DNA of 43,389 nt, from positions 1-43,389 of IMG/VR virus record IMGVR_UViG_2778261064_000026; one strand, 5' to 3'. Shown piece after piece: positions 3,905-38,486 of this stretch. The stretch is from a virus. Lineage: Duplodnaviria > Heunggongvirae > Uroviricota > Caudoviricetes. A program made the translations under genes and the position numbers. Positions within the stretch are counted from its first letter, which is position 1. Each line of letters opens with the position of its first letter. Below the pieces are notes generated by a model that saw only the letters and a program-made list of their open reading frames with translations, did no database searches and was not told the origin of the DNA.

Positions 3905-3970
3905 ACGCGACCCTAAATCCCAAACCAACCATATTGAGGTTATGCCTATAAGTTAAAAAGTGAGGTCTAT

Positions 3971-6031: not shown

Positions 6032-6063
6032 AAAAAAGCGCCCACTAGAGGCGCTTTAATTTT
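6032..6063. terminator. bidirectional terminator separating rightward block from leftward late operon
   Basis: aaagcgcccactagaggcgcttt hairpin flanked by A-run and T-run. Confidence 0.6.
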
Positions 6064-12307: not shown

Positions 12308-13078
12308 TTATTTCTTGAAGTCTTCGTACATTCTACGAAGGTTGTATTTTGGATGGCCTAAGCTAACCATGATTTGACTCAATTTAACCGCGCCGGGTTT
12401 ACCGTTTTCAATCCACACGCGCCGGATTTCATCGTAATGCTGCCAACAGCCTTGACCTTTAGCAATACGTATAGAATGTGTATATTTCTTGGTAGAGCTT
12501 TCTGGTCGCTTGCGCCCTAGATGTGCTTTTCTAATCTTTTCGCGTGTTTCTTCTGATACAGGTTTACCATAACGGGGGTTATTCTCTCCACGAGTAGCAG
12601 CCGATAATTTAGCTAATATTTCTGGGTTTGTTACTTTTTTGCCTCTCATTGCACTAGGTTTACCATAGCGATGGTTCTTTTCACCCATTCGAGATGCCGA
12701 CATTTTAGCTCTAGATTCCGGTGTATGTTTTCTTCCGTAAAAAGGATGATTTTCACCACCATCAAAACCACCGACACCACCAGGAGCTATATTAAGACAT
12801 ACACCACGCCCCCATTTTTCGCGTGCTGCCTCCACTAACAGGATTTCACATTCAAACGCTTCCTCGGCAGTATCAAACAATTTTGAACGAACAACTTCAA
12901 ATTCATATATCGGGGTTTCTGATTCTTTATTTTTACGCTTCATCATTTTAATAACTTTACCCGATCCCACATATCCATCGTCTAGATTTGTGGTTGTTCT
13001 TTTTCCGACGTAATGATAGATTTTACCAGAGCGATTAGATTTAATAGTGGTGTGATAAACGTAATGGAATTTTTGCAT
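12308..13078 (-). CDS. GIY-YIG homing endonuclease with NUMOD3-type DNA-binding repeats, 256 aa
   Basis: N-terminal YHYVYHTT...GKIYHYVGKR...GYVGSG GIY-YIG motif; three repeats HPFYGRKHTPESRAK / NHRYGKPSAMRGKK / NNPRYGKPVSEETREKIRKAH. Confidence 0.75.
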   Translation of the reverse strand: MQKFHYVYHTTIKSNRSGKIYHYVGKRTTTNLDDGYVGSGKVIKMMKRKNKESETPIYEFEVVRSKLFDTAEEAFECEILLVEAAREKWGRGVCLNIAPGGVGGFDGGENHPFYGRKHTPESRAKMSASRMGEKNHRYGKPSAMRGKKVTNPEILAKLSAATRGENNPRYGKPVSEETREKIRKAHLGRKRPESSTKKYTHSIRIAKGQGCWQHYDEIRRVWIENGKPGAVKLSQIMVSLGHPKYNLRRMYEDFKK

Positions 13079-22449: not shown

Positions 22450-22878
22450 TTAAAAACGCGCTAGATAAGAAAATTTAAGGCTAAGTGTCCCAACGATACC
22501 CCCATCACTAGAATCATCGTCATAATCGGTATTAGAAGCTACTGGAGTGATATCTGAAATAGAGAAGCCCAAATCTTTAAATCGTGGGTTATCCGGCTGA
22601 ATCTGGATTATCTGGCAAATACCCTCATGAATTTTCGTTTCATGAATCTGAGAATATAATTGCATTTCGATAACGCATTCAGCTTGCATTGCATTACCAC
22701 CACGGACCCTAGTGTAAGTCTCATTCATTCCGGTAATCCAACACACCACGTCATCGCTAAAACCAGTTTGAGTTTGTTCTACGTTTAAAGCCAGACCTAG
22801 ATCTTGTTCGATAATATCCTGTAAAGCACGTTTAATCTTAAGACGTGGCATATTATTAACGGTAGCGAGCATGTGCAC
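22450..22878 (-). CDS. head-tail connector/completion protein, 142 aa
   Basis: size and position after capsid gene. Confidence 0.35.
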   Translation of the reverse strand: MHMLATVNNMPRLKIKRALQDIIEQDLGLALNVEQTQTGFSDDVVCWITGMNETYTRVRGGNAMQAECVIEMQLYSQIHETKIHEGICQIIQIQPDNPRFKDLGFSISDITPVASNTDYDDDSSDGGIVGTLSLKFSYLARF

Positions 22879-23296: not shown

Positions 23297-25306
23297 TCAT
23301 TCAGCGGAGATGTGAAGAACTTTCAGAGCTTCCGGCTGAGTAACAACATAATCCAGATCTACCCAGATACGCGGAACGATAGCAGACTGTGCACGGTAGG
23401 TAGTGTCGTCCATATCCAGTTCCAGACCGCCCCACTCACCGATAGTGATGCCGGAGAAGTCACCCAGAACGATGTGATCTGCCGGAATAACACCAGAAGT
23501 AACTACTTCGTAACCAGCCAGTTTGCCGTTTTCGATAATATAACCGGAAACGCCGTTATCTTTCAGGGTAGATTCCAGTTCGGCAGCGGTTGCACCGCTC
23601 ATCGCAAACTTGATCGCCTGAGCAGGAACGCCAGCGTCGGTCAGTTTAGCAATTTCTTTCAGGAAATCTTTGTAAGAGAAAGCAGCTTTCTTCTCAACGC
23701 GACCACCGTCTACCAGTTGTTTAACCAGACCAGCCGGACCACGAGCATTTTCTTTGTCAGACAGAATCAGTTGTTCCAGTTTGATACGAACAGCTTTGTT
23801 AATGTGGTCAGTGATCAGGGTAGCGATACCCGGAACGGTTTTCAGAGACTGACGGCTAATCGGGTTGCCACCAGCGAAAGTCTTAGGAGACAGTTTCACG
23901 TTCGCAAATTCAGCTTTGCTTTCCGGCGCAGCACCGTTTTCATCAACGAAGCCGAAAGCATCAACGCTGGATTTAGTCATTTTTGGAATAGCGGTCGGAG
24001 CATTCAAGCCACTGTAAACAGTCACACCCAGACGACCCAGAACAGATTCCGGCATCAGCATTTCGATGTAGGATTCAGTCATCAGTTTTTCGTCGGTGAT
24101 AGCAGTCAGATCGGCTTTGGTGTTACCAGCAGCAGCAGCACGCATAGCAGCAGCCGGAACGAATACAGAGCCACCACGAGCAGCACGACCACGCTGCATA
24201 GTTGCAGTAGCAGCCATTGCAGAAAACTCGGCTTCGTTAGCACCCAGAGCTTCACCATCTACCAGAGAGCGAATTACGTTGTTCAGGTCAAAAGTTTTTT
24301 CCATTTTAGAGTCCTTAATTTGTTCGTTATTACGTTGAGCATTGGTAATGTTATTTAGTGCCTTAGTGCGGAATGCTTCCGGCGTCATTTCTTTATTTGC
24401 CAATGCGCGTTTCAATTCTTCGTCATCAATATTTAGTTCGCGTGCAATTTCGCGAATTTCTAATTCGTCTTCTTCGGAACGTTCAGCCACTTCCTCGATT
24501 TTTTCTTCTTCAACCGGAGCAGCTTCACGTTCTTCTTTTATTTCTTCTGCTTCCCGAACAGTTGAACTATCATCATCAACACTTTCAGGATGTTCAGCGT
24601 CTTTTCCGTCTTCGAGATTTTCATTTTCTTCATTCTCTTCAACTTGGCGCTCTTGAGTTTCTTCTACTTCCGATTCTTTATTTTCTTCTACCGGAGTTTC
24701 TTCAACCTGAGCGACTTCTTTTTCTTCTTCGTCTTTAACTTGTTCGATTTGTTCTTTAGTCATATCGCGTTTCGCCTCCAAATTAACTGTGATAGTATTT
24801 AGAGAGCGATTTAAACCGACCGAATCGTCCGCTGGCACCGTGACCCACGAAATTTCGTGAGGAATCCATTTAGAAACAATGAGTTGCGATTTAGCGTAGT
24901 CGATGTGATACTCTTTAATGTCATAGCCGACCGATATTTTTTCCATCGTACCTTCAATGACTTTATTACGAATATCATTAGCCAAAGTCCCATGCTTGGA
25001 GAATTTAACCAGAGCACGACCTACGTTATCCGCATCGATTCGAGCGTTACAAACAACACCAATGTGATTATCGAAATTATGATTGAACAGCAACGGAGCG
25101 TTATTATTCAGACGAGACAGATCAACCGCTTCCGGTGTATGTACCAGAATTTCATCTAATACCACCATTTCTTGATTTTGCTCATCCCAGAATTGGCGCT
25201 GGTAAGGCTGGGTACTTGAGAAAGCAATTTCAAATTCGTATTGATCGTTATGCCCTTCGTTAATAACTCCACCGTAACCGTTAAGATCGCGGCGAAATTT
25301 AAGCAT
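23297..25306 (-). CDS. fused prohead protease (HK97/S78-like), acidic scaffold-like linker and HK97-fold major capsid protein, 669 aa
   Basis: N-terminal PLLFNHNFDNHIG and ISVGY protease-type motifs; central E/D-rich low-complexity region; C-terminal about 330 aa capsid-like; host-optimal codon usage. Confidence 0.7.
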   Translation of the reverse strand: MLKFRRDLNGYGGVINEGHNDQYEFEIAFSSTQPYQRQFWDEQNQEMVVLDEILVHTPEAVDLSRLNNNAPLLFNHNFDNHIGVVCNARIDADNVGRALVKFSKHGTLANDIRNKVIEGTMEKISVGYDIKEYHIDYAKSQLIVSKWIPHEISWVTVPADDSVGLNRSLNTITVNLEAKRDMTKEQIEQVKDEEEKEVAQVEETPVEENKESEVEETQERQVEENEENENLEDGKDAEHPESVDDDSSTVREAEEIKEEREAAPVEEEKIEEVAERSEEDELEIREIARELNIDDEELKRALANKEMTPEAFRTKALNNITNAQRNNEQIKDSKMEKTFDLNNVIRSLVDGEALGANEAEFSAMAATATMQRGRAARGGSVFVPAAAMRAAAAGNTKADLTAITDEKLMTESYIEMLMPESVLGRLGVTVYSGLNAPTAIPKMTKSSVDAFGFVDENGAAPESKAEFANVKLSPKTFAGGNPISRQSLKTVPGIATLITDHINKAVRIKLEQLILSDKENARGPAGLVKQLVDGGRVEKKAAFSYKDFLKEIAKLTDAGVPAQAIKFAMSGATAAELESTLKDNGVSGYIIENGKLAGYEVVTSGVIPADHIVLGDFSGITIGEWGGLELDMDDTTYRAQSAIVPRIWVDLDYVVTQPEALKVLHISAE

Positions 25307-25351: not shown

Positions 25352-26863
25352 TTAGGGATCGGCTGGGGAATTTTTTTCTTCACCCTCGCCATTAACGATA
25401 ATATTTAGTGCGCTCTTTTCGGCTTGAATCTCTGAGAATACTTTTTCAGGATCATCACCACGTTCCAATATAACGGCAGTACGTGATTTAAGTCCGTTAT
25501 CAATTAAAGCAATCTCGGCGCTTACGTCTTTAAATGGATCGACGGATTCAAAACGCGGACGGATAATAGTAGTGTTATCGATAATATGCGGAATTGCAGT
25601 AATACGAATCGGAACAATACCACGCGCGGAATAATGGCGTAGATATGCTTCGAAAATGGGCGACACCACTGTTTCAATCAATTTGTTTTGCAGTGCTTTA
25701 ACTCGTGTGCGCTGGGTTAATTCACCGAAACGTGCGGCGCTGTAGTTGATCTGGGAAGTATCACCAGTCAAGCCCTGTTTAAACACGCCTAAGCCCATTG
25801 ATACGCTAGTAAACATCGCATCATTGAAGCTGTTAAAGTCATCACCGCTTTGCGTCGCCTGGATGCTCTTGATCGTTGCCCCTTCCGGCAATTCCTGAAT
25901 AGTACCCGGTGCAAAATCCTGTACTACTTCCGGCGCTTGATATTGTTCATCCTCTTCACCAGTATCAAAATCGTCACCAGAATCTTTCGGACGCTCGATA
26001 AAGCCCATAGAACTAGCTGCAATACGTTTCTGGATAATTGCAGTTTCGCGGAATGCGTCTTGATGTGCGATATCCTTAATCACTGGCAGGAAATCAGTCA
26101 CACCACGCAGGGATTCGGCTGTAAGTGGTTGATAATAATGGCATACTTGCGATGCATCTACGCGATAGTTATCACCTGTGTAAGTCTGAGTCAGTAGGTT
26201 GATTTTACGAAACCAGTATGCTACTGGCTTCATTGTTTCTACGTCATACTCGATCCCCTGATAGATAGCACGTTCTTTGCTTACTTCACGGTTTAGCGAC
26301 CAGTCGCACTTATCAGCAGACAGGATAGAAACATTTAACTCATTGTTTTCTTTGGTTAAAACGATGAAGCACTCACCACCCATAACGCGCTCACGTTCAG
26401 CCATTACCAGCAGTTCACGGAAGTTAAAGCGACCGTTACGAGAGAAGCGTTTAGCATTCTGCGCCCACTTCCAGAAAGCATTCTCGATCTGCTTATTCAG
26501 TGCGCTATCAAGTTTGCCATTTGATTTAACGATTGATGGCTTCGGATCTAGGCCAGTACCAACCACCATATCGGTGATGTATTGCGTGTAGCGACTGCCT
26601 ACGGAAGTGTTTAAGGCCAGAGTACGACCCTGATCATAAAGGCGCTTACCGTTTGATTTGAGAGCCTTATTGAAGGTTCCTGTAATGGTGTCTTGTTGAA
26701 GTGATCCATCAATGCGATCACCCACCAGACCTAAACTACGAGTCGCCAAAGATCTCTGGTATTTTTCTATAGATTTGTCGATGAAAATTTTTGGTTGTTG
26801 CTGGCGGTGATTAGTTTTAACTGGAGTTTCTACCGCCTTTTTGCGTCGAAAAAGATTAAACAT
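25352..26863 (-). CDS. portal protein, 503 aa
   Basis: size and position between terminase and capsid genes. Confidence 0.6.
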   Translation of the reverse strand: MFNLFRRKKAVETPVKTNHRQQQPKIFIDKSIEKYQRSLATRSLGLVGDRIDGSLQQDTITGTFNKALKSNGKRLYDQGRTLALNTSVGSRYTQYITDMVVGTGLDPKPSIVKSNGKLDSALNKQIENAFWKWAQNAKRFSRNGRFNFRELLVMAERERVMGGECFIVLTKENNELNVSILSADKCDWSLNREVSKERAIYQGIEYDVETMKPVAYWFRKINLLTQTYTGDNYRVDASQVCHYYQPLTAESLRGVTDFLPVIKDIAHQDAFRETAIIQKRIAASSMGFIERPKDSGDDFDTGEEDEQYQAPEVVQDFAPGTIQELPEGATIKSIQATQSGDDFNSFNDAMFTSVSMGLGVFKQGLTGDTSQINYSAARFGELTQRTRVKALQNKLIETVVSPIFEAYLRHYSARGIVPIRITAIPHIIDNTTIIRPRFESVDPFKDVSAEIALIDNGLKSRTAVILERGDDPEKVFSEIQAEKSALNIIVNGEGEEKNSPADP

Positions 26864-26873
26864 GATTTACCCC

Positions 26874-27368
26874 TTATCGCGTAAGACGTAATTTGATATT
26901 TTTAATCGGGCTAATTCCCTGTTTACGTCGTTCGGCTTGAATTAATTTAGACAGTTGACGTTCATAATCAGTCTTCAATTGCTGGAGAACACCCAATGAC
27001 TCATAAGCGAATGAGTTCCCTTTTATTGTCATTGCAGATAATGCGGCTTCGTCCCCAGATAAACGGGCGAAAATAACTTGCTCGATTTTGGCGATAGTTT
27101 CCCGCAGATGTTCTTTTTTGGATTGACGCTGAAAAATAGGCAATACAGTTAATTCCTGCATTGATACCAGTTCTTCATCAAGAGTAATAACAATGGTCAT
27201 CTTCCCTTCTGGAAAGTCTAACGTTTTAATCTCGTGATTTTCCGGTGCATCATCGACCTGATAGACAACGCCTTTGCTATTACCTACCTGAATTGTTACA
27301 CCCTCTTCATTCGCCAGCGTGATTTTTTCGCCTTTACGAATTACTAAGGGAATTAGTTCTAAACTCAT
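26874..27368 (-). CDS. hypothetical head-morphogenesis protein, 164 aa
   Basis: position between large terminase and portal. Confidence 0.3.
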   Translation of the reverse strand: MSLELIPLVIRKGEKITLANEEGVTIQVGNSKGVVYQVDDAPENHEIKTLDFPEGKMTIVITLDEELVSMQELTVLPIFQRQSKKEHLRETIAKIEQVIFARLSGDEAALSAMTIKGNSFAYESLGVLQQLKTDYERQLSKLIQAERRKQGISPIKNIKLRLTR

Positions 27369-27440
27369 AATTACCCCTTATTTAATTGTTATTGGATTAA
27401 CAATATTTAGGAGTAAGCCGCCCCGAAGGACGGCGAGTTA

Positions 27441-29345
27441 TTAGAACGATGTTACCCAGCTACGGCCTCTATTTGGACGTCTGGCGATGTTTTGACGTTG
27501 TGGTCGTGTGATTGGCTTAGTTTCTTCGATTTGCTCGTCAGATTGCGTTTCAGGAGCTTTTACGGGTTCTTCTGGTTCACGGTTCAAACTATCTTTGATG
27601 GCTTCGAGTTTTTCCCATGACATTTTATTGAGTACATGGCGAGAAGCAGCATAGGAATAAGCCAGGCAGTCGAGAGCCTCGTTTCGTTGCTGACCAACTT
27701 TTACCCAACGTGTGGTGTTACCCTGCCGTTTCAACTGTTCAGAAAGCAATTGCTCGCAATAGTCATCAGGAACGTCGCCAATCTGGAAGACAGTGTGAGG
27801 ATCGCCATCTCTCAAATTCCGGTTAATCATTTCACGGATCATCGTTTTAAGGTTGTTTACGCCCAGAATTTTAAGGGTAAAACCACCCGTTCTTGTGTCT
27901 TTTACCGGAAGGATTGGTGCATCAACATTGCTTGCGCCTTTAATGGCGGTTAGATTTTGCCACCGACTACAGAATCGATAGATCACTTGCGTAGCTCGTC
28001 CGTTCGATGAGTCCACGAAAGCAGATAACATCGGGATTCGTTCACCGGATCGGGTATAGAATTTCGCTTTCAGGAAGTTGTAAAGCTGGTCATATGCTGG
28101 TGATTCGTGGCGTTCGCAGTTCACATCATAGAATGATCGGTGATCAACTACGCATAGCCCTTTACGAGAAATACCCAGCAAGGTAGATTCCAGACGGTCT
28201 TTTTGCTGGTCAACTCCACCAACCAGAGCCAGTACATCATCAGGAATATTGTCTAGGCTAATATCAGTTTTCAGCGTTTCTAATTCGTCGGCTGTGCGGT
28301 CTTCGTTAAGATCATCGAAGGTTTCACCGAGGACTGTATTGTAGAACGTTGCCAGGGACATATTCGCGTAGCTATCAGCAAAGTCCACCACACACGCACG
28401 GATAGAACTAAACGGAGACATAAGGCGGTTAGCATGAAAACCGATTACTTCCGCGTTTGGTTCGGTGGCGACCCATTCTCCCTTAGCAACAGCACGTAGG
28501 CGATCCCCTTCGGTCCAATCGGTTTCACATTCAGGGCAACGGTAAACGGCTGTATCTGGGTTGGGTAATGATTTACCGTTAATCGTATGCCAATCGAAAT
28601 GTACGTTACTCCATTCCATTACGTGCTTGTGTCCGCAATGCTGGCAAACGACATGATATTTTCTCTTATCCGAGAGTTCCCATTGTTGGTTAATCGCCCC
28701 ATCACGAGCGGTTGGAGTGGAAGCAATTACGATCCTTGCATCTTCCCCGAAAGTGGTTGCGCGTTGTTCCGCTAGCTGGATCGGGTTCCCTTCGTCTGAT
28801 TCATCAGCCGCATCAACTTCATCAAGAATAATCAAAGGGAGTGTCTTACCGCGCAAGTGTGATGGACTGTTCAGCGACATGAAATACATGAATGATCCAT
28901 TACGAAGCTGAATAATCGATGAGTTGTTAACAGCATTACGGTCTGATTTGTCGGTGATCATCGCTTTTAATTCTGGCGTTGCCTCTAATACTGGCTTCAC
29001 CTTACCAGCGATCCAAGAATTTAGTTCCCTAACGTTACTTTGCAACACCCCAATATTCGTAGGGTTACTCGCGATCCGATGGAAGATAATTCCGTTAAGA
29101 ATCATGGTCTTACCCAACTGCGCCGAACATTTAAACACAATTTTTCTACGGTCTTCGGTGATCGCGTCCATCATTCCACGTTGGAAGGGATGCAATTTAA
29201 TTAGCGATCCGGCTTTAACACCATCGGTTGCAACTACATTAGCCTCTACCCATTCGCTAGGTTTCATCGTTTTAGGTGGGCGAATTGCCGCAGAGATATT
29301 TTTAAGAATCTTTTTTAATTTGGCCTTATTAGAAATCAGTTTCAT
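27441..29345 (-). CDS. terminase large subunit, lambda gpA family, 634 aa from MKLISNK
   Basis: Walker A KCSAQLGKT; CQHCGH zinc motif; NTVLGETF and RNEALDCLAYSYAA segments matching gpA-family landmarks; RBS gaggg before ATG 29345; track ORF extends to 29420. Confidence 0.85.
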   Translation of the reverse strand: MKLISNKAKLKKILKNISAAIRPPKTMKPSEWVEANVVATDGVKAGSLIKLHPFQRGMMDAITEDRRKIVFKCSAQLGKTMILNGIIFHRIASNPTNIGVLQSNVRELNSWIAGKVKPVLEATPELKAMITDKSDRNAVNNSSIIQLRNGSFMYFMSLNSPSHLRGKTLPLIILDEVDAADESDEGNPIQLAEQRATTFGEDARIVIASTPTARDGAINQQWELSDKRKYHVVCQHCGHKHVMEWSNVHFDWHTINGKSLPNPDTAVYRCPECETDWTEGDRLRAVAKGEWVATEPNAEVIGFHANRLMSPFSSIRACVVDFADSYANMSLATFYNTVLGETFDDLNEDRTADELETLKTDISLDNIPDDVLALVGGVDQQKDRLESTLLGISRKGLCVVDHRSFYDVNCERHESPAYDQLYNFLKAKFYTRSGERIPMLSAFVDSSNGRATQVIYRFCSRWQNLTAIKGASNVDAPILPVKDTRTGGFTLKILGVNNLKTMIREMINRNLRDGDPHTVFQIGDVPDDYCEQLLSEQLKRQGNTTRWVKVGQQRNEALDCLAYSYAASRHVLNKMSWEKLEAIKDSLNREPEEPVKAPETQSDEQIEETKPITRPQRQNIARRPNRGRSWVTSF

Positions 29346-29430
29346 GTAATTACCCTCATTACGAAATATGAAGGTATTTATTAAATTGTTGATTTTTTGA
29401 TAAATACGGGTATTAATCAAAGGGGGTTGT

Positions 29431-30036
29431 ATGCTAATTAATCAGCAACAAAGAGATGTATTAGAATTAGCCTTTTCTTGTTGTACCGATCATGAATATC
29501 GTTTGCCAGTTAAGCACCATCACAAGAAGACTGATTACACAACATCTGGATTTAGTCGTGAGGAAGCGAAAGAGATTTTAATAGAATTTTACCGCGATAA
29601 TGGTTATACAGACGTTCACAACTTCTTTAAGAAGCATAGAACATCACATACAGAGTTCCAGAGAGTCCGAGATTGGTTTGATTTTGATATCAAGCGTTAT
29701 TATCGAGTGGATGACGGTCCGATCTATCGGTTGCAGTGGAAGCCGATCCGAGAAGTGTTGAAACAGAAGAGATTGAATCACGCAATTACACGCTATCGTA
29801 ACGAGGCTTTCAAGAAAGGCTATGGTGATACAAGGGAACTATTCGTTGAACTCGCTAACGTGCGTTATAGCCACTATTACAACGATCCTAAAGGGTTCTT
29901 TGAAGTGCTTCGCAAGGTTGATATAAGTCGGGGTACATACTATTCACGGTTGAAGAAGTACGGGATTAAGGCAGAGTTCTTTATGAGTATTGACGATGGA
30001 GAACTTTTTCCGATAAAATGTAAGTCCTCTAAATAA
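29431..30036 (+). CDS. hypothetical protein, 201 aa, with C-terminal HTH module paralogous to the small HTH proteins
   Basis: C-terminal RELFVELANVRY...GTYYSRLKKYGIK aligns with the 60-aa and 77-aa proteins; RBS aaaggggg. Confidence 0.4.
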   Translation: MLINQQQRDVLELAFSCCTDHEYRLPVKHHHKKTDYTTSGFSREEAKEILIEFYRDNGYTDVHNFFKKHRTSHTEFQRVRDWFDFDIKRYYRVDDGPIYRLQWKPIREVLKQKRLNHAITRYRNEAFKKGYGDTRELFVELANVRYSHYYNDPKGFFEVLRKVDISRGTYYSRLKKYGIKAEFFMSIDDGELFPIKCKSSK

Positions 30037-30064
30037 AGGTGAACATTCACTTTAATTTGGAGAA

Positions 30065-30298
30065 ATGACTATGACTACTAAAGCTACTCGCGGTCGTCCT
30101 TGCCGTTTTACCCGTGAACAGATGGCTGATATTGCCTATGCTTACTATACAGCGGATCGTGGTAAGGAAGCGAAAGAACAGATTCTTAGTGAACATGGGA
30201 TCTCAATCGCCCAATTCTATAAGAATATGAAGAAGTTAGACATTAAATTCTATGTTCAGATCGGTGATGGTCAGATCGTAGAAGCAACAGGTTTTTGA
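30065..30298 (+). CDS. small HTH DNA-binding protein, 77 aa (FTRE...KKLDIK family)
   Basis: RGRPCRFTREQMADIAYAYY...GISIAQFYKNMKKLDIK, transposase-OrfA/resolvase-like HTH pattern. Confidence 0.45.
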   Translation: MTMTTKATRGRPCRFTREQMADIAYAYYTADRGKEAKEQILSEHGISIAQFYKNMKKLDIKFYVQIGDGQIVEATGF

Positions 30299-30313
30299 GT
30301 TTTGATTCTCTTT

Positions 30314-30338
30314 GCCACTCTTCGGAGTGGCTTTTTTG
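30314..30338 (+). terminator. rho-independent terminator
   Basis: gccactc-ttcg-gagtggc followed by tttttt. Confidence 0.7.
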
Positions 30339-30381
30339 TATGTAAAACAATCTGAGCAAAATTGGTTAGATCACCAGATAC

Positions 30382-30410
30382 AAAAAGCCCAGCGCAATTA
30401 TGCGCCGGGC
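30382..30410 (-). terminator. terminator after Rha-family gene
   Basis: 9-bp stem with one mismatch plus U-run on minus strand. Confidence 0.5.
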
Positions 30411-30416
30411 GATTAA

Positions 30417-31241
30417 TCACAGTCCGAAGACTTCCAGTGATCCAACATTCTGGCGTAGACGTTCAGCCGCTTTATTTTGAATCAGAATAGTGTTGTTCGG
30501 CTTAGGAAGATTCAGAGTTGCTTTTTGTTCTTCTTCCAGAACACCCAATTCAACCAGCACCGGAAGCACATCAACAGTAAACTCAAGCTGGTAGTGAGCA
30601 TTCATGCGGCAGAAAGACAGAGAAGAGTCATTAGCAACATACCCACACGGCTTGTTATTTTCATCGTAGACGCGCTCAATGTAGCCAGCAGTACGCAAGG
30701 CCGTTAGTGCTTCTTTAACCTTCGTAGCGCCCTTTTTAGCGCCTAACAGACGGGTCATTGAATGGCTATCTACTGATTTGCGAACATGAAGTTCAATCAG
30801 CTTTTTATTTTCGCGAGTTTTCTTTAATGCCAGTTCGATCCAGTCTGTTTCTTCAAAGTCTGCATACGGGTTAACGGCTAAACGTTCCTGACGCAGTTTT
30901 TCATTTTCTTCTTTCAGTCGCTTCCATTCCTGAATAACAACCATTCGACGCTTAACATCGTAACCAGTGACAAGAGTCAGCGTCATTTCTTCGTCTAAGT
31001 GATATACTGGTTCTTTAACAGCATATCCTAAGTTATTGATTCTCTCGACAAATTCAGTTTTGAGCTGATCGATAATACCTAAAGATTCGTACATTTCGCG
31101 AATATCGCGCATTACATTGCTGTGCTTCTTATCGGTAAATTCAGCGATCTGACGGGAAGACATGGTCAGCGGTTTGGTGTTATCGACAACCAGAGACACG
31201 GAAGCAGTTTTAGCAGTATTCATAACGGTAACAGTATTCAT
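30417..31241 (-). CDS. Rha-family phage regulatory protein (antirepressor-like), 274 aa
   Basis: N-terminal LTMSSRQIAEFTDKKHSNVMRDIREM typical of Rha domain. Confidence 0.7.
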   Translation of the reverse strand: MNTVTVMNTAKTASVSLVVDNTKPLTMSSRQIAEFTDKKHSNVMRDIREMYESLGIIDQLKTEFVERINNLGYAVKEPVYHLDEEMTLTLVTGYDVKRRMVVIQEWKRLKEENEKLRQERLAVNPYADFEETDWIELALKKTRENKKLIELHVRKSVDSHSMTRLLGAKKGATKVKEALTALRTAGYIERVYDENNKPCGYVANDSSLSFCRMNAHYQLEFTVDVLPVLVELGVLEEEQKATLNLPKPNNTILIQNKAAERLRQNVGSLEVFGL

Positions 31242-31330
31242 AGTAAAAATTCCCCTTAAACGGTTTAATGATTTGGTCCTCCTAGTTCCGGCATCACCAC
31301 CGGAACAATTTTATTTATAATAGAAATTTA

Positions 31331-31663
31331 TTACCAATCGATTTCTACCTGATCTTCTTCGTAGTAAGGAATCGCATATTCATAACGCCAGTTTTCGATG
31401 ATTTCACGTTCTTCATTAGTAAGAAGGTGATTGCTAACTGGAGTCGCATTGTGATTACCAGCTTCGAATTGTTCGCGAACTTCCAGCATTGCATGAATAC
31501 CAGTTAAGGACATCAGATCAAACGGAACATGCATACTACGGGAGATTGTTTCACGGGATACGCCCCAATCATTTTCTACATGGCTAGGGCTTACAGAAAC
31601 GGTTTTGCCGGAGATTTTAACAGTCCAGTCATACAGGGATTTAGTGATGGTAAATTCTTTCAT
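31331..31663 (-). CDS. hypothetical protein, 110 aa
   Basis: ORF track; co-oriented upstream of Rha-family gene. Confidence 0.4.
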   Translation of the reverse strand: MKEFTITKSLYDWTVKISGKTVSVSPSHVENDWGVSRETISRSMHVPFDLMSLTGIHAMLEVREQFEAGNHNATPVSNHLLTNEEREIIENWRYEYAIPYYEEDQVEIDW

Positions 31664-31675
31664 GTTACATCCTCT

Positions 31676-31780
31676 TTACAAATCTAGGTCAAATAGGTTC
31701 AAAATTGTCAAGTGCGATAATCATAAAAAAGTCAGAAAATTTTGTCAATACCCCTTGACAAGACGCCAAAGGGTTGACCT
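31676..31780 (-). promoter_or_regulatory. promoter with overlapping operator-like inverted repeats
   Basis: minus-strand TTGACA, 17-nt spacer, TATGAT; inverted repeat TTGTCAA-N6-TTGACAA at about 31742-31761; outer pair AGGTCAA/TTGACCT. Confidence 0.4.
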
Positions 31781-31783
31781 AAA

Positions 31784-32236
31784 TTACAGCATATCTAAGC
31801 CTTCATCGTAACCGTAGAAGCCACCGTGAGAAGAGAAACAGATTGGTGTGTAGTCGTCGTCATCTTCGTCTTGTTCATCGTGTTCTGGGGCTTCCTGAGC
31901 GGGTTGTTTACCATAATCAGCCATAATCTGGTCAAGATCGGCGATCCCATAGTAAGAGCCTAAATCAACGTCATATTCACGAACATCAAACGGCAGGTCA
32001 TCACGAACAATAATTGCCGGAATGTTGTTGTATTGTTCACGACCTTCATCAGTAAAGCAGTCTACGATCACCGTAGGGCGACCATTACGTTTAAGAGCAT
32101 AGAAAGCAGTTGAGAAATTGGAGTCTTCGGAATGACGAATGATGTTATAACCACGATTAGCGAAAACATGCATCATAGCCAGATTATCATCATGGTTCAG
32201 ACCCAGAAGAATGAAAGGAGTTTTAGTATTGATCAT
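31784..32236 (-). CDS. hypothetical protein, 150 aa, with acidic C-terminal tail
   Basis: ORF track; RBS agagga; EHDEQDEDDDDY tail. Confidence 0.4.
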   Translation of the reverse strand: MINTKTPFILLGLNHDDNLAMMHVFANRGYNIIRHSEDSNFSTAFYALKRNGRPTVIVDCFTDEGREQYNNIPAIIVRDDLPFDVREYDVDLGSYYGIADLDQIMADYGKQPAQEAPEHDEQDEDDDDYTPICFSSHGGFYGYDEGLDML

Positions 32237-32497
32237 AGTGGAAATCCTCTAAAAGAAAGTGAATCAAACAAAGTACACTATTATTTATAACGAGAAATTT
32301 TTGTCTAATTTGAAAGGAATTGGTATTCAGTCGGCTTCGCCTCCTTCATAGATTTTGATTAAATCATCATCAAAACGAAGAAGTATCTTTAGAATATAAG
32401 AATCTTTCTTTTGGAGAAATTATAATCAGGAAGCAATTTAGCAACCGAAGGTTGCAATCCCGAAGGGATAACCAATACCTTTCATGATCATTAAAGT

Positions 32498-32720
32498 GAT
32501 CTAGAATCATCTAGTAACCAGTTAACTACTATTATCTTCAAAGTGATTATTACTATCTTTCTAGAATCAGTTAGTAACTAGTTTAAAAATCCCTTTCAAG
32601 AAAATCCTTTCAGAAGTGATTCTCGATGCCACGCAGTGGCGTCGCAGACGTTTGAGAGTGAGCGAAGCGAGCGAGCAAACTAGTTAATTCCTTCTAAGAC
32701 CATCTAGTATCATCTAGTTT
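32498..32720. repeat. cluster of CTAG-rich palindromic repeats
   Basis: ctagaatcatctagtaaccagttaact, ctagaatcagttagtaactagtt, catctagtatcatctagtt; palindromes AGTTAACT, AACTAGTT, TTCTAGAA. Confidence 0.4.
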
Positions 32721-32865
32721 AAATTAGTGTTACTAGAAGTAATTGGTTAGCGCTTCGCGCAGTCGGGCTACGCCCTCCTAATATCTTTTTGGTTATTTGT
32801 TGTTTTTGGTTTTACACATGAGCGTAGCGAATGTGTTATATAATATCTATGCACGCCCGATTCCC

Positions 32866-33110
32866 CGTTTTTGCCCCTCGCTAAGTTAATGTTTTATAAA
32901 GAGTTTTTCTCACCAATCCTTTTCGGGGGCAAATTTCAGGGGCAAAAATTAGATTTTCAGGGGCAATTATTGGCATTTCAGGGGCAAAAATGAGGGGCAA
33001 AATCACCGTTTCCCAGAATTTCAGGGGCAAAAATAGTAGGTTTCAGGGGCAAAAATGGGATAGTGAAATCTAGGGGATTTTGGTTCAGGGGCAAAATTCA
33101 GGGGCAATTT
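32866..33110. repeat. iteron array: nine direct copies of (T)TCAGGGGCAA(AAAT) plus one inverted copy
   Basis: GGGGCAA cores at about 32926, 32939, 32960, 32981, 32995, 33024, 33046, 33088, 33101; inverted at 32871; spacings mostly 13-14, 21-22, 42 bp. Confidence 0.65.
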
Positions 33111-33148
33111 TCATAGTGTAGTGCTAGTGTAGGTTTGAAAGTCCTTTC

Positions 33149-33177
33149 TTGACACTATGTAGGTTTGGTGCTATACT
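33149..33177 (+). promoter_or_regulatory. near-consensus sigma70 promoter P1 (TTGACA, 17 nt, TATACT)
   Basis: read directly from sequence. Confidence 0.6.
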
Positions 33178-33206
33178 TGACAATTTGAGAAAAAATGTGG
33201 TATAAT
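33177..33206 (+). promoter_or_regulatory. consensus sigma70 promoter P2 (TTGACA, 18 nt, TATAAT), overlapping P1
   Basis: read directly from sequence. Confidence 0.6.
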
Positions 33207-33626
33207 ATTTGTATTGAAAGTGAAAATTTACCGATTTTCCTTCCTATTGTTATCACCGTGTTAAATTGTTATATGTTTGTGAAGATTTGGATCTGAGAGA
33301 AAATCTTGTAACAAATCTTTACAATTCATAGCTCAATTAATGCTCACCGCTTTAGCAAAAAGTGCTATGCATTTTTCTAAATTGATTGAATAAACATCAA
33401 TTTGGTTAATTCGTGTTCTTCTCTTTAGCAATTCGTGCTGCGGTTTAACACATTTAACACGTCTGATAACATCTGAATAACATTTTAACATATCTCTGTT
33501 ATAAATACATATATAAGAGATAAATGTGAGGGGTTGAAAAATAAAATACAATCCCCATATAAATAATAGTGAGCGGTTAACGCTCTTTTTTAAGAAATCA
33601 TTAATCCAGATTTAGGAGGATTTAAG

Positions 33627-33809
33627 ATGGCACGACCTGTTAAGTTCACTCGTGAAATCGTTTTAGAAATGGCAAAGCGTTATTTTGAACTGACACCTGA
33701 TGTAGTGATGGGTGAATGGTTTAAAGGTGAAGGTATTGATCAATCAACCTTCCACAAACTCTTAAAGAAGTATGACATTAAAGTAAAGATTACCGCAGAG
33801 GTGTGGTAA
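33627..33809 (+). CDS. small HTH DNA-binding protein, 60 aa (FTRE...KKYDIK family)
   Basis: MARPVKFTREIVLEMAKRYF...GIDQSTFHKLLKKYDIK; RBS aggagga. Confidence 0.5.
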   Translation: MARPVKFTREIVLEMAKRYFELTPDVVMGEWFKGEGIDQSTFHKLLKKYDIKVKITAEVW

Positions 33810-33922
33810 TAACCTTTCACTGAGAATTATATGATGGCTTTAAAAAAGAAAAAGCCTCCCTTGTTGCAGCAAAGGAGGCTTGAAATGAACAATTAAAACT
33901 AACTTTCCACGGAGTATTTATA

Positions 33923-34864
33923 ATGTTATTTTCCGCTAACTTTTTCACTAACGAAGTAACCAACGCTAAAGCAGTTATCAAATTTGGCACCGAAGCAAAC
34001 AAGAAGATTCAGCCGAAAGTTGTTGCTCATGTTTCCTTTGCGCAGCAGAAATCCGCTTTCGCTGGCTTTAAAGCACATCGTGAAGCACTGATCGCGGCTG
34101 GCTTTGGTGTTGACGGTAAACTGCCTAACGGCATTCGTAAAGCAATCGACCGCGTTAAACCTGCTAAAGACGTTGCAGTAGACCGCATCGTTACTTTTAC
34201 CGTTAAGAACTCTTCTGAACTGTTCCACCTGGTTATTGCTGGTGATACTGCTATCGTTTCCGCTCCTAACATGGATTTTCAGGATACCGCTGATTGCCAG
34301 ATCACCTTCGGTCGTCGTAAAGAAGTTACCGGAAAAGCTAAACTGAACTTCACTAAATCCGGCAATCCTTACTTTGCTGTTTTCTTTAACAGCCACGCTA
34401 CCGAAAAAGAAGTTGTAGAACTGGTTGCTTATGAAGGTGAAGAGAAAGAACGTATTGAATCTTGCGAAGCATTTCTGGAACTGGAAGCACAGGTGAATGC
34501 TGTTTCTCCGGTTGTTGAAGATCGCTTTGCTGCACTGGAAGCACAGATCGCAGAACTGAAAGCTGCACTGGAAGAAAAAGACCAGATTATCGAAGCACAG
34601 AAAGCTGAGATTGAAGAACTGAAAGCTAAAGAAGTTGCTCCGGTAGCAGTAGTTGAAAACGCGGCTGATGAGGCCGCAAATGATGAAGTAGAAGTGAAAA
34701 TCGATGTGATGCGTGATCCGATGGCTGCACTGCAATTACTTCGTTCTTTTAAGGGCAAATCTCATTTTTCTAGTGATGTAGAAGATGAGGAAGAAGAACA
34801 GAAACGCAATGCTGCAATGCTTCATGATGAAATGTACGGTACTAACTTTTCTTACTGCCAATAA
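33923..34864 (+). CDS. hypothetical protein, 313 aa, with central coiled coil and acidic patches; likely highly expressed
   Basis: host-optimal codons (ctg, cgt, ggt, aac, ttc); first large ORF downstream of tandem consensus promoters. Confidence 0.5.
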   Translation: MLFSANFFTNEVTNAKAVIKFGTEANKKIQPKVVAHVSFAQQKSAFAGFKAHREALIAAGFGVDGKLPNGIRKAIDRVKPAKDVAVDRIVTFTVKNSSELFHLVIAGDTAIVSAPNMDFQDTADCQITFGRRKEVTGKAKLNFTKSGNPYFAVFFNSHATEKEVVELVAYEGEEKERIESCEAFLELEAQVNAVSPVVEDRFAALEAQIAELKAALEEKDQIIEAQKAEIEELKAKEVAPVAVVENAADEAANDEVEVKIDVMRDPMAALQLLRSFKGKSHFSSDVEDEEEEQKRNAAMLHDEMYGTNFSYCQ

Positions 34865-34867
34865 AAA

Positions 34868-34886
34868 AGGGACTCCGAAGAGTCCC
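34868..34886 (-). terminator. terminator-like hairpin
   Basis: gggactc-cgaa-gagtccc preceded by A6 on plus strand (U-run on minus). Confidence 0.4.
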
Positions 34887-34970
34887 TAGTAAGTTTAGGT
34901 TAGGTTTTGCACAACAAAGATGAGGTTATAATGAACATAATGCTACATTATTCTTTAAAGCCAGAAAAAT

Positions 34971-34990
34971 AACCGCCCCCGAAGGGGCGG
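34971..34990 (-). terminator. terminator-like hairpin
   Basis: ccgcccc-cgaa-ggggcgg preceded by aaaaataa on plus strand. Confidence 0.4.
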
Positions 34991-35148
34991 GAGGATTAAT
35001 ACTCAATCTATACTTGTTATGTTTTTATGTTGTATAGTCACTGACTATGAAAACACTGTACTGAATGTGTTTTATGGCTTTTAATCGGGAACTCTCTTTC
35101 GAAAATTCCCTGTTAAAACCACATAAGGAGAAATGGCAGATTACAATA

Positions 35149-35433
35149 TTATTTAGTCTGTTTGAAAACAAACGTTAAAAATTCGATTAAGCAATATACC
35201 CAGCATACAGTAAGCAGTAGATGCATAGAAATAGCCGGATGGAAGTTAAAAAGTGTCATACTAACTAGGCCAACAATATAAGAAATTCCTTCGACAATTA
35301 ACGCAAGACTAGCAAATGCAACAAACGCACCTAAGAATAATTCAGCACGTTCTCTATTTTCGGTTCCGAGTTTATAAGCAGAAATAACAGCCAGAATAGT
35401 AATGATGACAGCATAGGTAATAAAAGTAGCCAT
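35149..35433 (-). CDS. small integral membrane protein, 94 aa, about 3 TM helices
   Basis: three hydrophobic segments; RBS aagagga. Confidence 0.45.
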   Translation of the reverse strand: MATFITYAVIITILAVISAYKLGTENRERAELFLGAFVAFASLALIVEGISYIVGLVSMTLFNFHPAISMHLLLTVCWVYCLIEFLTFVFKQTK

Positions 35434-35527
35434 AGTTTTATATCCTCTTAAAAGTTAAGCGGGGGATGTTCTCCCCCGTAGACGTTGACCAGCTCAACAT
35501 CTTTCATACATTTATTTATAACGCGTT

Positions 35528-36094
35528 TTAAGACACATCAAATTCATCGTCTTCTTCTGGTTCTTGTTCCGGTTCATCCATTAATGGTAATTCTTCTTCC
35601 TCGTCTTCACCAAAATCTGCATTTTCGAACAAGTCCCCTACTTCATTTAAACGACGCTCGATGATCTCCCTTAGCTTATTCTTCAATGTTTTCTGATCAG
35701 TGGCAGATTCGAGAATTTCTAAAGCGTCGATTGTGGCGATCTGCAAAATAGTCTGCTTCACTTTTCCGCAATATTCCGCTAGTTGCTGTTCTACATACCC
35801 GACAGGAATCAGGAGATTCATTGCTTCCTGGTTCTCTCGTTCGGCTGCGTCCGCTAATGCTCTCTCGCGGCGTAACTTCTCTACGTCGATTTGTTCTTTG
35901 ACAGTAGTTTCCCTGAGTGGACTGATGATATTTTTTGCTATCCATTCGGTCCCTTCCTTGAGCGGTACGCGTCGTGTATTGGTGTTAAATGGCATTCCTC
36001 GTTCTTGCCATTTCTTAGCGGCGTTAATTGTATAGCCGTATAAGCGGGAAATTTCTGTAAGGGTTAATTCTTCTTTCATCCGGTTATCCTCCAT
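35528..36094 (-). CDS. Nu1-like DNA-binding protein (candidate terminase small subunit), 188 aa
   Basis: N-terminal LTLTEISRLYGYTINAAKKWQERGMPF resembles lambda Nu1 winged-HTH (TIQNWQEQGMP) as I recall it; very acidic C-terminus. Confidence 0.4.
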   Translation of the reverse strand: MEDNRMKEELTLTEISRLYGYTINAAKKWQERGMPFNTNTRRVPLKEGTEWIAKNIISPLRETTVKEQIDVEKLRRERALADAAERENQEAMNLLIPVGYVEQQLAEYCGKVKQTILQIATIDALEILESATDQKTLKNKLREIIERRLNEVGDLFENADFGEDEEEELPLMDEPEQEPEEDDEFDVS

Positions 36095-36378
36095 TAAATT
36101 TGCGTAAAATTATTTATCTGATCTGCGCATTCAGGAGAGCGCCTAAAACGCTTTATAACGAAGGGAAAGATCGAGGCGAGGAAAGGGATTGGCTGGTGTT
36201 AATAGTCGCGTAGCGACCGCGCTGGTGGGCTGCACTGCACCTGTTTTGAAATCTCACACGCACATCAAAAACCGGGGTGCCGAAAACTCGCTTTATTTCA
36301 CCCGTGGAACAGTACCTATCAATTTTGTCAAGTCTTTTTTATAAATAATCGAAAATATTTTTCACGCGAGGGCAAATC

Positions 36379-36684
36379 ATGAAGACTAAAGATATTAAGA
36401 TTGACTTTGAAACTGTTGATGACGTTCGGGAACATCGCATTGATTCTACTGGCTGCATCTTCCAGCTTACTAACTCCCCTATTGGATTGATTATCTATGT
36501 AGCAGAAGATGACGTGTACGCTATGTGGGATGGACAGGATGAGTTTAAAGGCGGGAATAGCCATCTGATCAATACTCATGAGGGATTCGATCCGACTCCT
36601 GTCTGTATGCTTGCTTATCACGTAACACTGGATGAACTACCGGAAGCAAGCGCGCGTATCCGTAAAATGAAAGATATTAAGTGA
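36379..36684 (+). CDS. hypothetical protein, 101 aa, last gene before the chromosome junction
   Basis: ORF track; terminator downstream. Confidence 0.4.
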   Translation: MKTKDIKIDFETVDDVREHRIDSTGCIFQLTNSPIGLIIYVAEDDVYAMWDGQDEFKGGNSHLINTHEGFDPTPVCMLAYHVTLDELPEASARIRKMKDIK

Positions 36685-36702
36685 TGTAAGTAATTGATTC
36701 CT

Positions 36703-36732
36703 AAGCCCTGTCCTTGTGATGGGGCTTTTTTA
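36703..36732 (+). terminator. rho-independent terminator
   Basis: agccc...ggggct hairpin plus tttttt. Confidence 0.5.
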
Positions 36733-36746
36733 TTGGAAATCGGGTG

Positions 36747-37187
<441 letters not shown>

Positions 37188-37226: not shown

Positions 37227-38204
<978 letters not shown>

Positions 38205-38398: not shown

Positions 38399-38486
38399 GG
38401 TGAGGTGTCCGAGTGGCTGAAGGAGCACGCCTGGAAAGTGTGTATACGGCAACGTATCGGGGGTTCGAATCCCCCCCTCACCGCCA
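38399..38486 (+). tRNA. serX: tRNA-Ser (anticodon GGA)
   Basis: GGTGAGGTGTCCGAGTGGCTGAAGGAGCACGCCTGGAAAGTGTG...GGTTCGAATCCCCCCCTCACCGCCA with long variable arm and encoded CCA; ghrA neighbour. Confidence 0.9.

What the first reader, a model, noticed from the sequence alone, without database searches (positions are those of the whole stretch)
35528..36378. Nu1-like small-terminase candidate lies 6 kb from the gpA-like large terminase
The 188-aa protein has a Nu1-type N-terminal winged-HTH signature (KKWQERGMPF) but is separated from the gpA-family large terminase (27441..29345) by the whole accessory block, including plus-strand genes. In lambda-like phages Nu1 and A are adjacent and cos lies just upstream of Nu1. 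Either the accessory block is an insertion between the two terminase genes, or this protein is a Nu1-fold regulator and the real small subunit is elsewhere. The GC-rich stretch around 36200-36250 (gtcgcgtagcgaccgcgctggtgggctgcactgcacc) upstream of this gene is a candidate cos/packaging site.
Basis: partly seen in the sequence, partly recalled or inferred. Interest (0 to 1): 0.55.

Follow-up and report, generated by a model that had tools for sequence, protein, structure and literature searches.

The report
Stand-alone Nu1-type small terminase gene
A prophage inserted in the E. coli ycdX gene carries a divergent lambda-Nu1-type small terminase gene as its own transcription unit next to the attachment site, 6.2 kb from its large terminase gene. 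This split layout is shared by the whole prophage lineage and is not a recent insertion.

Summary
The ORF 35528..36094 (-) exists, contains KKWQERGMPF, and lies 6,182 bp from a gpA-type large terminase (TerL, 27441..29345). Genes on both strands lie between them. The true start is probably M6 (36079), giving 183 aa.

The protein is a divergent member of the lambda Nu1 small-terminase (TerS) family:
- It matches phrog_57, the PHROG that holds Nu1 itself, over its full length (E 6e-17).
- hhalign against Nu1 gives 93.8% probability over residues 5-107, which is more than the HTH.
- The best Foldseek hit of the AF2 model is the Nu1 DNA-binding domain.
- Its family profile reaches proteins that pass Pfam's Phage_Nu1 threshold. 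The protein itself does not (15.3 bits, cut-off 30).

No other TerS candidate was found. Non-adjacency to TerL is conserved in E. coli and Salmonella relatives, at 6-8 kb, and in more distant relatives. The block is therefore ancestral to the lineage, not a recent insertion.

The GC-rich stretch is the most GC-rich 37-mer in the prophage. It contains the longest invariant non-coding run, a 16-mer, within a conserved 265-bp module upstream of the gene. That makes it a plausible cos core, but this is unproven.

One further point: identical or near-identical TerS proteins pair with two TerL core types that are only 57-64% identical.

Interest is modest.

The parts
35528..36079 (-). Small terminase gene (TerS), 183 aa from M6. 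Predicted layout: winged HTH (about residues 1-39), long helices (40-88, 93-125, 129-152), a disordered acidic tail, and a nearly invariant C-terminal EFD(V/L/I)S.
36080..36346 (-). Conserved non-coding module upstream of TerS. Homology with nearly all relatives compared starts at 36332-36346, whatever lies beyond. It is proposed to hold the TerS promoter and the cos (cosN/cosB-like) region.
36205..36241 (.). GC-rich core (73% GC). It includes the 16-mer GCGGTCGCTACGCGAC (36205..36220, read on the minus strand), which carries the dyad GTCGC-TAC-GCGAC. Proposed cosN-like cleavage region.
36326..36331 (-). TTGACA box, invariant in the E. coli and Salmonella relatives compared (within AAGACTTGACA in most). 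Probable -35 element of the TerS promoter. No consensus -10 lies at the right spacing.
36279..36297 (-). Copy 1 of the direct repeat ATAAAGCG(A)GTTTTCGGC, on one side of the GC-rich core. Candidate TerS-binding (R-like) site.
36141..36157 (-). Copy 2 of the direct repeat (ATAAAGCGTTTTAGGC), 140 bp from copy 1 on the TerS-proximal side of the core.
35460..35478 (-). Terminator-like hairpin directly after the TerS stop codon. It makes TerS a separate transcription unit.
29431..35433 (.). 6-kb intervening block. It holds a 94-aa protein that looks like a membrane protein by eye (35149..35433 -), ORF313 and ORF60 (+), a 1.4-kb low-GC non-coding gap with consensus promoters, ORF150, ORF110 and a Rha-family regulator (-), and ORF77 and ORF201 (+). 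The units have their own promoter-like and terminator-like sites.
27441..29345 (-). gpA-type large terminase (ATPase plus nuclease domains). SD GAGGG lies upstream of the ATG at 29345. The core 27686..29298 is a swapped allele relative to close relatives.
36379..36684 (+). ORF101, optional cargo between the TerS module and the attachment site. It is absent in relatives L036 and L037.
36737..36769 (.). Right prophage/host junction (attR) inside ycdX. The truncated ycdX is the ORF 36747..37172 (-).

Best explanation
The gene at 35528..36079 (-) encodes the phage's small terminase, a divergent member of the lambda Nu1 family.

Proposed mechanism, by analogy with lambda:
- The N-terminal winged HTH binds sites in the conserved 265-bp module directly upstream of its own gene (36080..36346).
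- The central helices oligomerise.
- The acidic C-terminal tail, with its nearly invariant EFD(V/L/I)S end, docks on the conserved N-terminal tip of the gpA-type large terminase (27441..29345).
- The large terminase then nicks a cosN-like site to give cohesive ends and pumps DNA into the capsid. The best candidate for that site is the GC-rich core at 36205..36241.

Unlike lambda, TerS is a separate transcription unit, with a conserved TTGACA box upstream and a hairpin terminator downstream. It sits within 0.3-0.7 kb of attP. A 6.2-kb multi-operon block on both strands separates it from TerL, and this layout is ancestral to the whole prophage lineage.

Shown: homology, fold, gene order and sequence conservation. 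Inferred: DNA binding, the TerS-TerL contact and the position of cos.
For: 1. phrog_57 full-length match, E 6e-17. Lambda Nu1 belongs to the same PHROG, E 1e-76, and four relatives also match (P0066, P0049, the DCP80 homologue, L033).
2. hhalign of the family against the Nu1 family gives 93.8% probability, E 1.7e-7, over residues 5-107. This covers the HTH and the following helical region, including the motif ERxRxxRAxADAxExxN.
3. The AF2 model has pLDDT 77.6 and shows a wHTH plus long helices. The top Foldseek PDB hit is 1J9I, the Nu1 DNA-binding domain (prob 0.99); the TerS chain 6HN7_B ranks third. A profile-vs-PDB sequence search also finds 6hn7_B and 1j9i.
4. The family profile, searched against 1.84 billion representatives, gives only 109 hits. 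Of ten hits scanned against Pfam, four pass the Phage_Nu1 threshold; P0281 scores 97 bits over the full length.
5. The prophage has a full gpA TerL, portal, capsid and tail set, and no other TerS hit.
6. TerS always co-occurs with a gpA-type TerL 6-8 kb away in E. coli and Salmonella relatives.
7. The first 16 residues of TerL are identical between the window and L036, although the TerL cores are only 60% identical. This fits a conserved docking peptide.
8. Evidence for cos: the stretch is the most GC-rich 37-mer in the prophage. The invariant 16-mer is the longest invariant run; 36 of 20,000 column shuffles reached it. Flanking parts of the module differ in the relatives whose TerS N-terminal domain differs (L035 is 72% identical in residues 1-60 and 98% in 61-150), while the 16-mer stays fixed.
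Against: - The protein fails Pfam's Phage_Nu1 gathering threshold (15.3 bits, cut-off 30) and has no NCBIfam hit.
- BLASTP against Nu1 aligns only 27 residues.
- RefSeq calls it 'hypothetical protein' in most genomes.
- No experimental data exist on virion ends or on packaging for any member, and no isolated phage with a trustworthy genome carries it.
- The invariant 16-mer tracks the TerS type rather than the TerL type. It is the same with both TerL core types and differs in the 55%-TerS group. It could therefore be a TerS-binding or regulatory site rather than the cleavage site.
- The location next to att, with its own promoter and terminator, would also suit a recombination directionality factor or a regulator.
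Confidence: 0.75

Rival explanations
1. The protein is a Nu1-fold DNA-binding regulator, for example a recombination directionality factor for the large serine integrase or a transcription factor. On this view it is not the packaging subunit.
For: In the prophages compared here whose junction could be read, it lies at the prophage end within 0.3-0.7 kb of att. In the circular form it is about 1.5-2.5 kb from the serine recombinase gene (889..2568). The wHTH is of the MerR/excisionase type: Xis and RdfS structures appear among the fold hits, and phrog_66 'excisionase' appears as a weak secondary hit for Nu1 and for the DCP80 homologue. It has its own promoter-like box and terminator.
Against: Homology to Nu1 extends beyond the HTH into the oligomerisation helices, and the PHROG match covers the full length. 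Excisionases of this fold are about 60-80 aa, from general knowledge. No other TerS candidate exists in an otherwise complete packaging module. The DCP80 26-kb piece shows no integrase near the homologue, nor does the stretch of contig L040 that was fetched.
Confidence: 0.1
2. The protein is the small terminase, but cos or pac is not the GC-rich stretch. It could lie elsewhere in the 265-bp module, downstream of TerS, in the 1.4-kb low-GC gap (32237..33626), or upstream of TerL. The GC-rich element would then be a regulatory or TerS-binding site.
For: The 16-mer co-varies with TerS type rather than TerL type. No sequence test can place a nick. The conserved module holds other invariant blocks: GCGTGTGA, TAGGCGCT, and TAAATAA and TTACGCA two bases apart. 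The TTGACA box lies upstream of the GC-rich core, so the core would be transcribed into the TerS leader.
Against: The TerL-proximal intergenic region is only 85 bp, is AT-rich and has no comparable element. The 16-mer occurs once in the window. In lambda-type systems cosN lies about 100-200 bp upstream of the small-subunit gene (general knowledge); here the core lies 126-162 bp upstream.
Confidence: 0.35
3. The 6-kb block is a recent insertion that split an originally adjacent TerS-TerL pair in this particular prophage.
For: The block is built of independent units with their own promoter-like and terminator-like sites, and its content varies between relatives.
Against: The same split layout is seen in every relative examined:
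- Salmonella, 6.4 kb.
- An E. coli relative at a different integration site, 8.3 kb.
- L035 and L036.
- L033, no TerL within 6.9 kb downstream.
- L040, none within 10 kb upstream or 5.5 kb downstream.
ORF201 and ORF77, next to TerL, are 89% identical at the nucleotide level even in the relative whose TerS is most divergent among those compared.
Confidence: 0.05

Closest known systems
Lambda gpNu1 / gpA terminase with cos (cosQ-cosN-cosB)
   Same: The small subunit is about 180 aa, with an N-terminal winged HTH (W-x-E/Q-x-G-M-P motif), a helical self-association region and a C-terminal tail. The partner is a gpA-family ATPase-nuclease. A GC-rich, partly dyad-symmetric element lies about 130-160 bp upstream of the small-subunit gene.
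   Different: Sequence identity to Nu1 is very low: BLASTP aligns only 27 residues, and the protein fails the Pfam PF07471 threshold. In lambda, nu1 and A overlap and are co-transcribed in the late operon. Here the genes are 6.2 kb apart, with a terminator-like hairpin after TerS and opposite-strand genes between them. Here the module also abuts attP. The C-terminal tail is strongly acidic, with a conserved EFD(V/L/I)S end that is not seen in Nu1.
P2-like phages (gpM small and gpP large terminase), T7 (gp18/gp19), PaP3 (p01/p03)
   Same: These are precedents for non-adjacent small and large terminase genes (general knowledge; the PaP3 paper PMC3488191 was found but not read).
   Different: As far as I recall, those separations are short (about 0.5-2 kb) and lie within the late or structural gene cluster. 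Here the spacer is 6-8 kb, or more in distant relatives, of non-structural genes on both strands. Also from general knowledge, the P2 terminase belongs to a different family.
TerS of helper phages targeted by E. coli PICI Rpp (PDB 6HN7)
   Same: The N-terminal domain of the same Nu1-type fold is recovered by both sequence profile (E 0.005) and fold search.
   Different: No PICI or Rpp context is present here. The similarity is limited to the DNA-binding domain.

Membership tests
Pfam PF07471 Phage_Nu1 | Score at or above the curated gathering threshold (30 bits) | tested here: not met
   15.3 bits, E 0.016, residues 10-82 only; no hit at E<=0.01. Lambda Nu1 scores 333 bits.
PHROG phrog_57 (terminase small subunit; contains lambda Nu1) | Significant full-length match to the family profile | tested here: met
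   E 6e-17, 63 bits, residues 2-173 against profile positions 5-190 of 199. Nu1 itself scores E 1e-76.
Nu1-type small terminase (superfamily sense) | N-terminal winged HTH of the Nu1/MerR type | tested here: met
   AF2 model. Top Foldseek hit is 1J9I: prob 0.99, TM(target) 0.58, rmsd 2.3 A over 52 columns.
Nu1-type small terminase (superfamily sense) | Homology beyond the HTH, into the self-association region | tested here: met
   hhalign 93.8% probability, E 1.7e-7, aligning residues 5-107 with Nu1 3-117. The family profile reaches proteins that pass the PF07471 threshold.
Nu1-type small terminase (superfamily sense) | Gene adjacent to, and co-transcribed with, the gpA-type large subunit | tested here: not met
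   6,182 bp apart, with a terminator-like hairpin after TerS and plus-strand genes between. The same holds in all relatives.
Nu1-type small terminase (superfamily sense) | Binds repeated sites (cosB) next to cosN and stimulates gpA nicking | not testable with these tools
   Only candidates exist: a direct repeat flanking the GC-rich core and an invariant 16-mer.
Nu1-type small terminase (superfamily sense) | C-terminus binds the N-terminus of the large subunit | not testable with these tools
   Indirect only. The C-terminal F-D-x-S is invariant or nearly so. The first 16 residues of TerL are conserved across 60%-identical TerL cores.
gpA-family large terminase (partner) | GpA_ATPase plus GpA_nuclease domains | tested here: met
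   E 7e-62 and E 2e-46, both above threshold.
Excisionase / RDF | Short (about 60-80 aa) wHTH protein, usually encoded next to the integrase gene | tested here: not met
   The protein is 183 aa, with a long helical region homologous to Nu1. Function in excision could not be tested.

The most novel reading that the evidence does not exclude
In this prophage lineage the packaging-specificity module (cos plus Nu1-type TerS, next to attP) has become a free-standing cassette, genetically uncoupled from the motor. The same TerS works with two TerL cores that are only 57-64% identical. It would do so through a short conserved N-terminal docking peptide on TerL and an acidic tail on TerS ending in EFD(V/L/I)S. 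Specificity and motor would then evolve and recombine independently.
Probability: 0.3. Interest if true: 0.5.

Novelty: new variant of a known kind. Interest (0 to 1): 0.35.

Why it matters
- **Annotation.** It gives a function to a protein that RefSeq mostly labels 'hypothetical'. The gene and its upstream module occur in 63 of 5,426 complete E. coli genomes, and relatives occur in Salmonella.
- **Gene-finding rule.** 'Small terminase lies just upstream of large terminase' is a common annotation heuristic. It fails for a whole lineage with a lambda-type terminase.
- **A natural experiment.** Identical or near-identical TerS proteins pair with two very different TerL cores that share only the N-terminal tip and the C-terminal region. 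This points to which segments carry the TerS and portal contacts.
- **Overall.** None of this overturns current models of packaging. It is a useful refinement, not a surprise.

Tried and rejected
- **Phage database at DNA level:** no match for 27000..37000. The only protein-level hit is phage DCP80. Its record is a scrambled mix of T4-like pieces plus a 26-kb piece related to this prophage, so its gene order was not trusted.
- **ORF201, the conserved ORF beside TerL, as an alternative TerS:** no Pfam, PHROG, NCBIfam, PADLOC or PDB sequence hit. Its AF2 model (pLDDT 70.5) has no fold match. Rejected.
- **Defence-system annotation of the block:** PADLOC found nothing significant.
- **A conserved RNA structure in the TerS leader,** such as a put-like antiterminator: the RNAalifold consensus is weak (-15.8 kcal/mol, unfavourable covariation term). 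Not supported.
- **A second copy of the 16-mer, or of the ATAGGTACTGT box found next to TTGACA, elsewhere in the prophage:** none found.
- **Contig ends as a proxy for cos:** the ends of IMG/VR, NCBI and Logan contigs fall at att, at gene boundaries or at arbitrary positions. None falls at the GC-rich core. Uninformative.
- **Literature:** searches for ycdX prophages and for non-adjacent terminase genes found nothing on this lineage.
- **Similarity of the core to lambda cosN:** the shared GCGACC was judged by eye to be too short to mean anything.

Full report
**Setting**

The window is E. coli chromosome carrying a prophage of about 36.7 kb inserted in ycdX.
- To the right of about 36740 lie a truncated ycdX (36747..37172 -), ghrA (37227..38204 -) and tRNA-Ser (38399..38486).
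- In strain UTME-12 the other half of ycdX and ycdY follow directly after the small ORF that starts at window position 1. The window therefore begins within about 20 bp of attL.
- A large serine recombinase (889..2568 +) lies at the left end.
- Read in the sense of the late genes (minus strand), the order is: attR, ORF101, TerS candidate, 6-kb block, TerL, head-tail joining protein, portal, protease-capsid fusion, tail genes, endolysin (6062..6415), helicase and nucleases, integrase, attL.

**The observation**

- The 188-aa ORF (35528..36094 -) and the motif KKWQERGMPF are there.
- Most listed homologues begin at M6 (36079), which follows a GGAGGA Shine-Dalgarno sequence, and RefSeq annotates 552 bp. 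The product is thus most likely 183 aa.
- TerL (27441..29345 -) is a clear gpA-family enzyme (GpA_ATPase E 7e-62, GpA_nuclease E 2e-46).
- The two genes are 6,182 bp apart.
It is the single most GC-rich 37-mer of the prophage (73% against 41.6 +/- 8.1%).

**Is it a small terminase?**

Pfam and NCBIfam give nothing at normal thresholds. At a relaxed E-value, Phage_Nu1 appears at 15.3 bits against a cut-off of 30. Four other lines of evidence are stronger:
- **PHROGs.** The protein matches phrog_57 'terminase small subunit' over its full length (E 6e-17). Lambda Nu1, fetched from NC_001416, belongs to the same PHROG (E 1e-76). So do the relatives P0066, P0049, the DCP80 homologue and L033.
- **Profile-profile comparison.** An 18-sequence alignment of the family was compared with an 11-sequence Nu1 alignment. 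The result is 93.8% probability, E 1.7e-7, over residues 5-107 against Nu1 3-117. This covers the HTH and the next helical segment, with the shared pattern E(K/R)xRxxRAxADAxExxN.
- **Structure.** The AlphaFold2 model has pLDDT 77.6. It shows a wHTH, three long helices and a disordered acidic tail. Its best PDB match is the Nu1 DNA-binding domain 1J9I (prob 0.99), and the TerS chain of 6HN7 ranks third. A sequence profile search of the PDB also finds 6hn7_B (E 0.005) and 1j9i (E 0.03).
- **Exhaustive profile search.** Against 1.84 billion cluster representatives the family profile finds only 109 proteins, most of them about 155-195 aa. Ten of them were scanned against Pfam. Four pass the Phage_Nu1 threshold; P0281 scores 97 bits over the full length.

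The protein therefore belongs to a small, divergent branch of the Nu1 family. No other ORF of the prophage that was scanned hits a TerS family. The conserved ORF201, which abuts TerL on the other strand, has no detectable similarity to anything in sequence or predicted fold.

**Is the separation an insertion?**

No. It is a property of the lineage.
- **Salmonella relatives** (TerS 68-70% identical, also integrated at ghrA/ycdX) have TerS, then 6.4 kb with a similar but not identical gene set, then TerL.
- **An E. coli relative** with 55-58% identical TerS, integrated at a different site, has 8.3 kb between the genes.
- **Close relatives L035 and L036** show the same layout.
- **Distant relatives.** L033 (43% identical) has no TerL within 6.9 kb downstream. 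L040 (profile E 9e-51) has none within 10 kb upstream or 5.5 kb downstream. There TerS follows the tail tip, endonuclease VII and lysozyme genes.
- **Structure of the block.** It is built of separate units with their own promoter-like and terminator-like sites. Terminator-like sites number 15 against 5.9 expected in the 29200..36800 scan. One lies directly after TerS at 35460..35478.
- **Function of the block.** Apart from a Rha-family regulator, its proteins have no known family.

**The upstream module and cos**

- In nearly all relatives compared, homology upstream of TerS begins at 36332-36346, whatever lies beyond. In L036 and L037 ORF101 is absent, and the att junction lies about 57 bp from that point.
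- The module contains a TTGACA box (36326..36331) that is invariant in the E. coli and Salmonella relatives compared. No consensus -10 lies at the right spacing.
- It also contains several invariant blocks and the GC-rich core.
- Seven sequences were compared, spanning the E. coli groups and Salmonella. The longest invariant run is the 16-mer GCGGTCGCTACGCGAC (36205..36220), a dyad GTCGC-TAC-GCGAC. A run this long arose in 36 of 20,000 column shuffles.
- The group with 55%-identical TerS has a different sequence there (GCTCTAGAACGAGC), which is also dyad-symmetric.
- Parts of the module that flank the 16-mer differ in the relatives whose TerS N-terminal domain differs. L035, for example, is 72% identical in residues 1-60 and 98% in residues 61-150. 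This resembles the lambda/phage 21 pattern of a shared cosN with a specificity-matched cosB (general knowledge).
- A direct repeat, ATAAAGCG(A)GTTTTCGGC / ATAAAGCGTTTTAGGC, flanks the core 140 bp apart.

All of this fits a cos region, but none of it shows where the DNA is cut. The 16-mer is the same with both TerL core types, so it could be a TerS or regulatory site instead. RNAalifold found no convincing conserved RNA structure in the leader.

**TerL mosaicism**

- The window's TerL is only 57-60% identical to the TerL of prophages that are otherwise nearly identical in this region (UTME-12, L035, L036). It is 82% identical to the TerL of Salmonella L007.
- Nucleotide homology between the window and L036 runs at 95% over 29298..36346 and at 91% over 25484..27686. 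It vanishes over 27686..29298.
- Only the TerL core is exchanged. The first 16 residues are identical and the last 80 or so are conserved.
- In Salmonella the identical TerS protein (P0049) pairs with both TerL types; L005 and L007 are 64% identical in TerL.
- In lambda the N-terminus of gpA binds Nu1 and its C-terminus binds the portal (general knowledge). The conserved ends fit those contacts.

**Distribution and verdict**

- The TerS gene with its upstream module occurs in 63 of 5,426 complete E. coli genomes. Nearly all copies are annotated 'hypothetical protein'.
- No isolated phage with a reliable genome carries it.
The 'insertion' idea should be replaced by 'lineage-wide uncoupled layout'. 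The cos proposal is reasonable but untested.
- The finding is a variant of a well-known system and is of modest interest.

Noticed in passing
27686..29298 (TerL core), compared with L001, L035, L036, L005, L007: TerL occurs as two core alleles that are 57-64% identical. The first 16 residues are identical between the window and L036, and the last 80 or so are conserved. The exchange boundaries lie inside the gene. Identical or near-identical TerS proteins pair with both alleles.
   Followed up: partly
36379..36684 (+): ORF101 has no family hit. It is optional cargo between attP and the TerS module and is absent in relatives L036 and L037. A terminator-like hairpin follows it at 36703..36727.
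   Followed up: partly
29431..30036, 30065..30298, 33627..33809 (all +): Three plus-strand proteins of the block share a C-terminal HTH-like motif, GIS..T(F/Y)(Y/H)K.LKKYDIK. The two short ones also share an N-terminal RPxxFTRE. They look like paralogous small DNA-binding proteins and could be the missing immunity or regulatory genes. ORF201 plus ORF77 is the best-conserved part of the block in the relative whose TerS is most divergent (89% nucleotide identity).
   Followed up: partly
32237..33626: A 1.4-kb non-coding gap lies in the lowest-GC part of the window (about 34-37% GC). It holds two overlapping near-perfect sigma-70 promoter matches on the plus strand (33149..33206, 12/12 and 11/12). 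Candidate early-control region or origin.
   Followed up: no
12308..13078 (-): A homing-endonuclease-like ORF (phrog_314, E 4e-32) sits inside the tail gene cluster.
   Followed up: no
2642..3928 (-) and 3971..4540 (+): Two neighbouring proteins both match the endonuclease family phrog_681 and carry CapR homology domains. The first is annotated as GIY-YIG nuclease in RefSeq. They lie next to a DEAD/DEAH helicase (4531..6030). No ORF that was scanned matched a replication-initiator or CI-type repressor family.
   Followed up: no
23297..25306 (-): The capsid gene encodes a prohead protease-major capsid fusion (NCBIfam NF045541 and the HK97 protease domain).
   Followed up: no
22595..22685 (+): ARAGORN calls a 91-nt tRNA-Glu(ttc) on the plus strand, inside the minus-strand ORF 22450..22878. 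The length is atypical, so it is probably a false positive.
   Followed up: no
L002 and L039 (PQ671644, Escherichia phage DCP80): The GenBank record is labelled Gaprivervirus. It consists of scrambled T4-like gene fragments plus a 26-kb piece related to this prophage lineage (TerL 44% and TerS 35% identical). It is likely a chimeric assembly.
   Followed up: partly
35149..35433 (-): A 94-aa protein lies directly downstream of TerS. By eye it has about three hydrophobic segments. It is conserved in the E. coli relatives and has no family hit.
   Followed up: no
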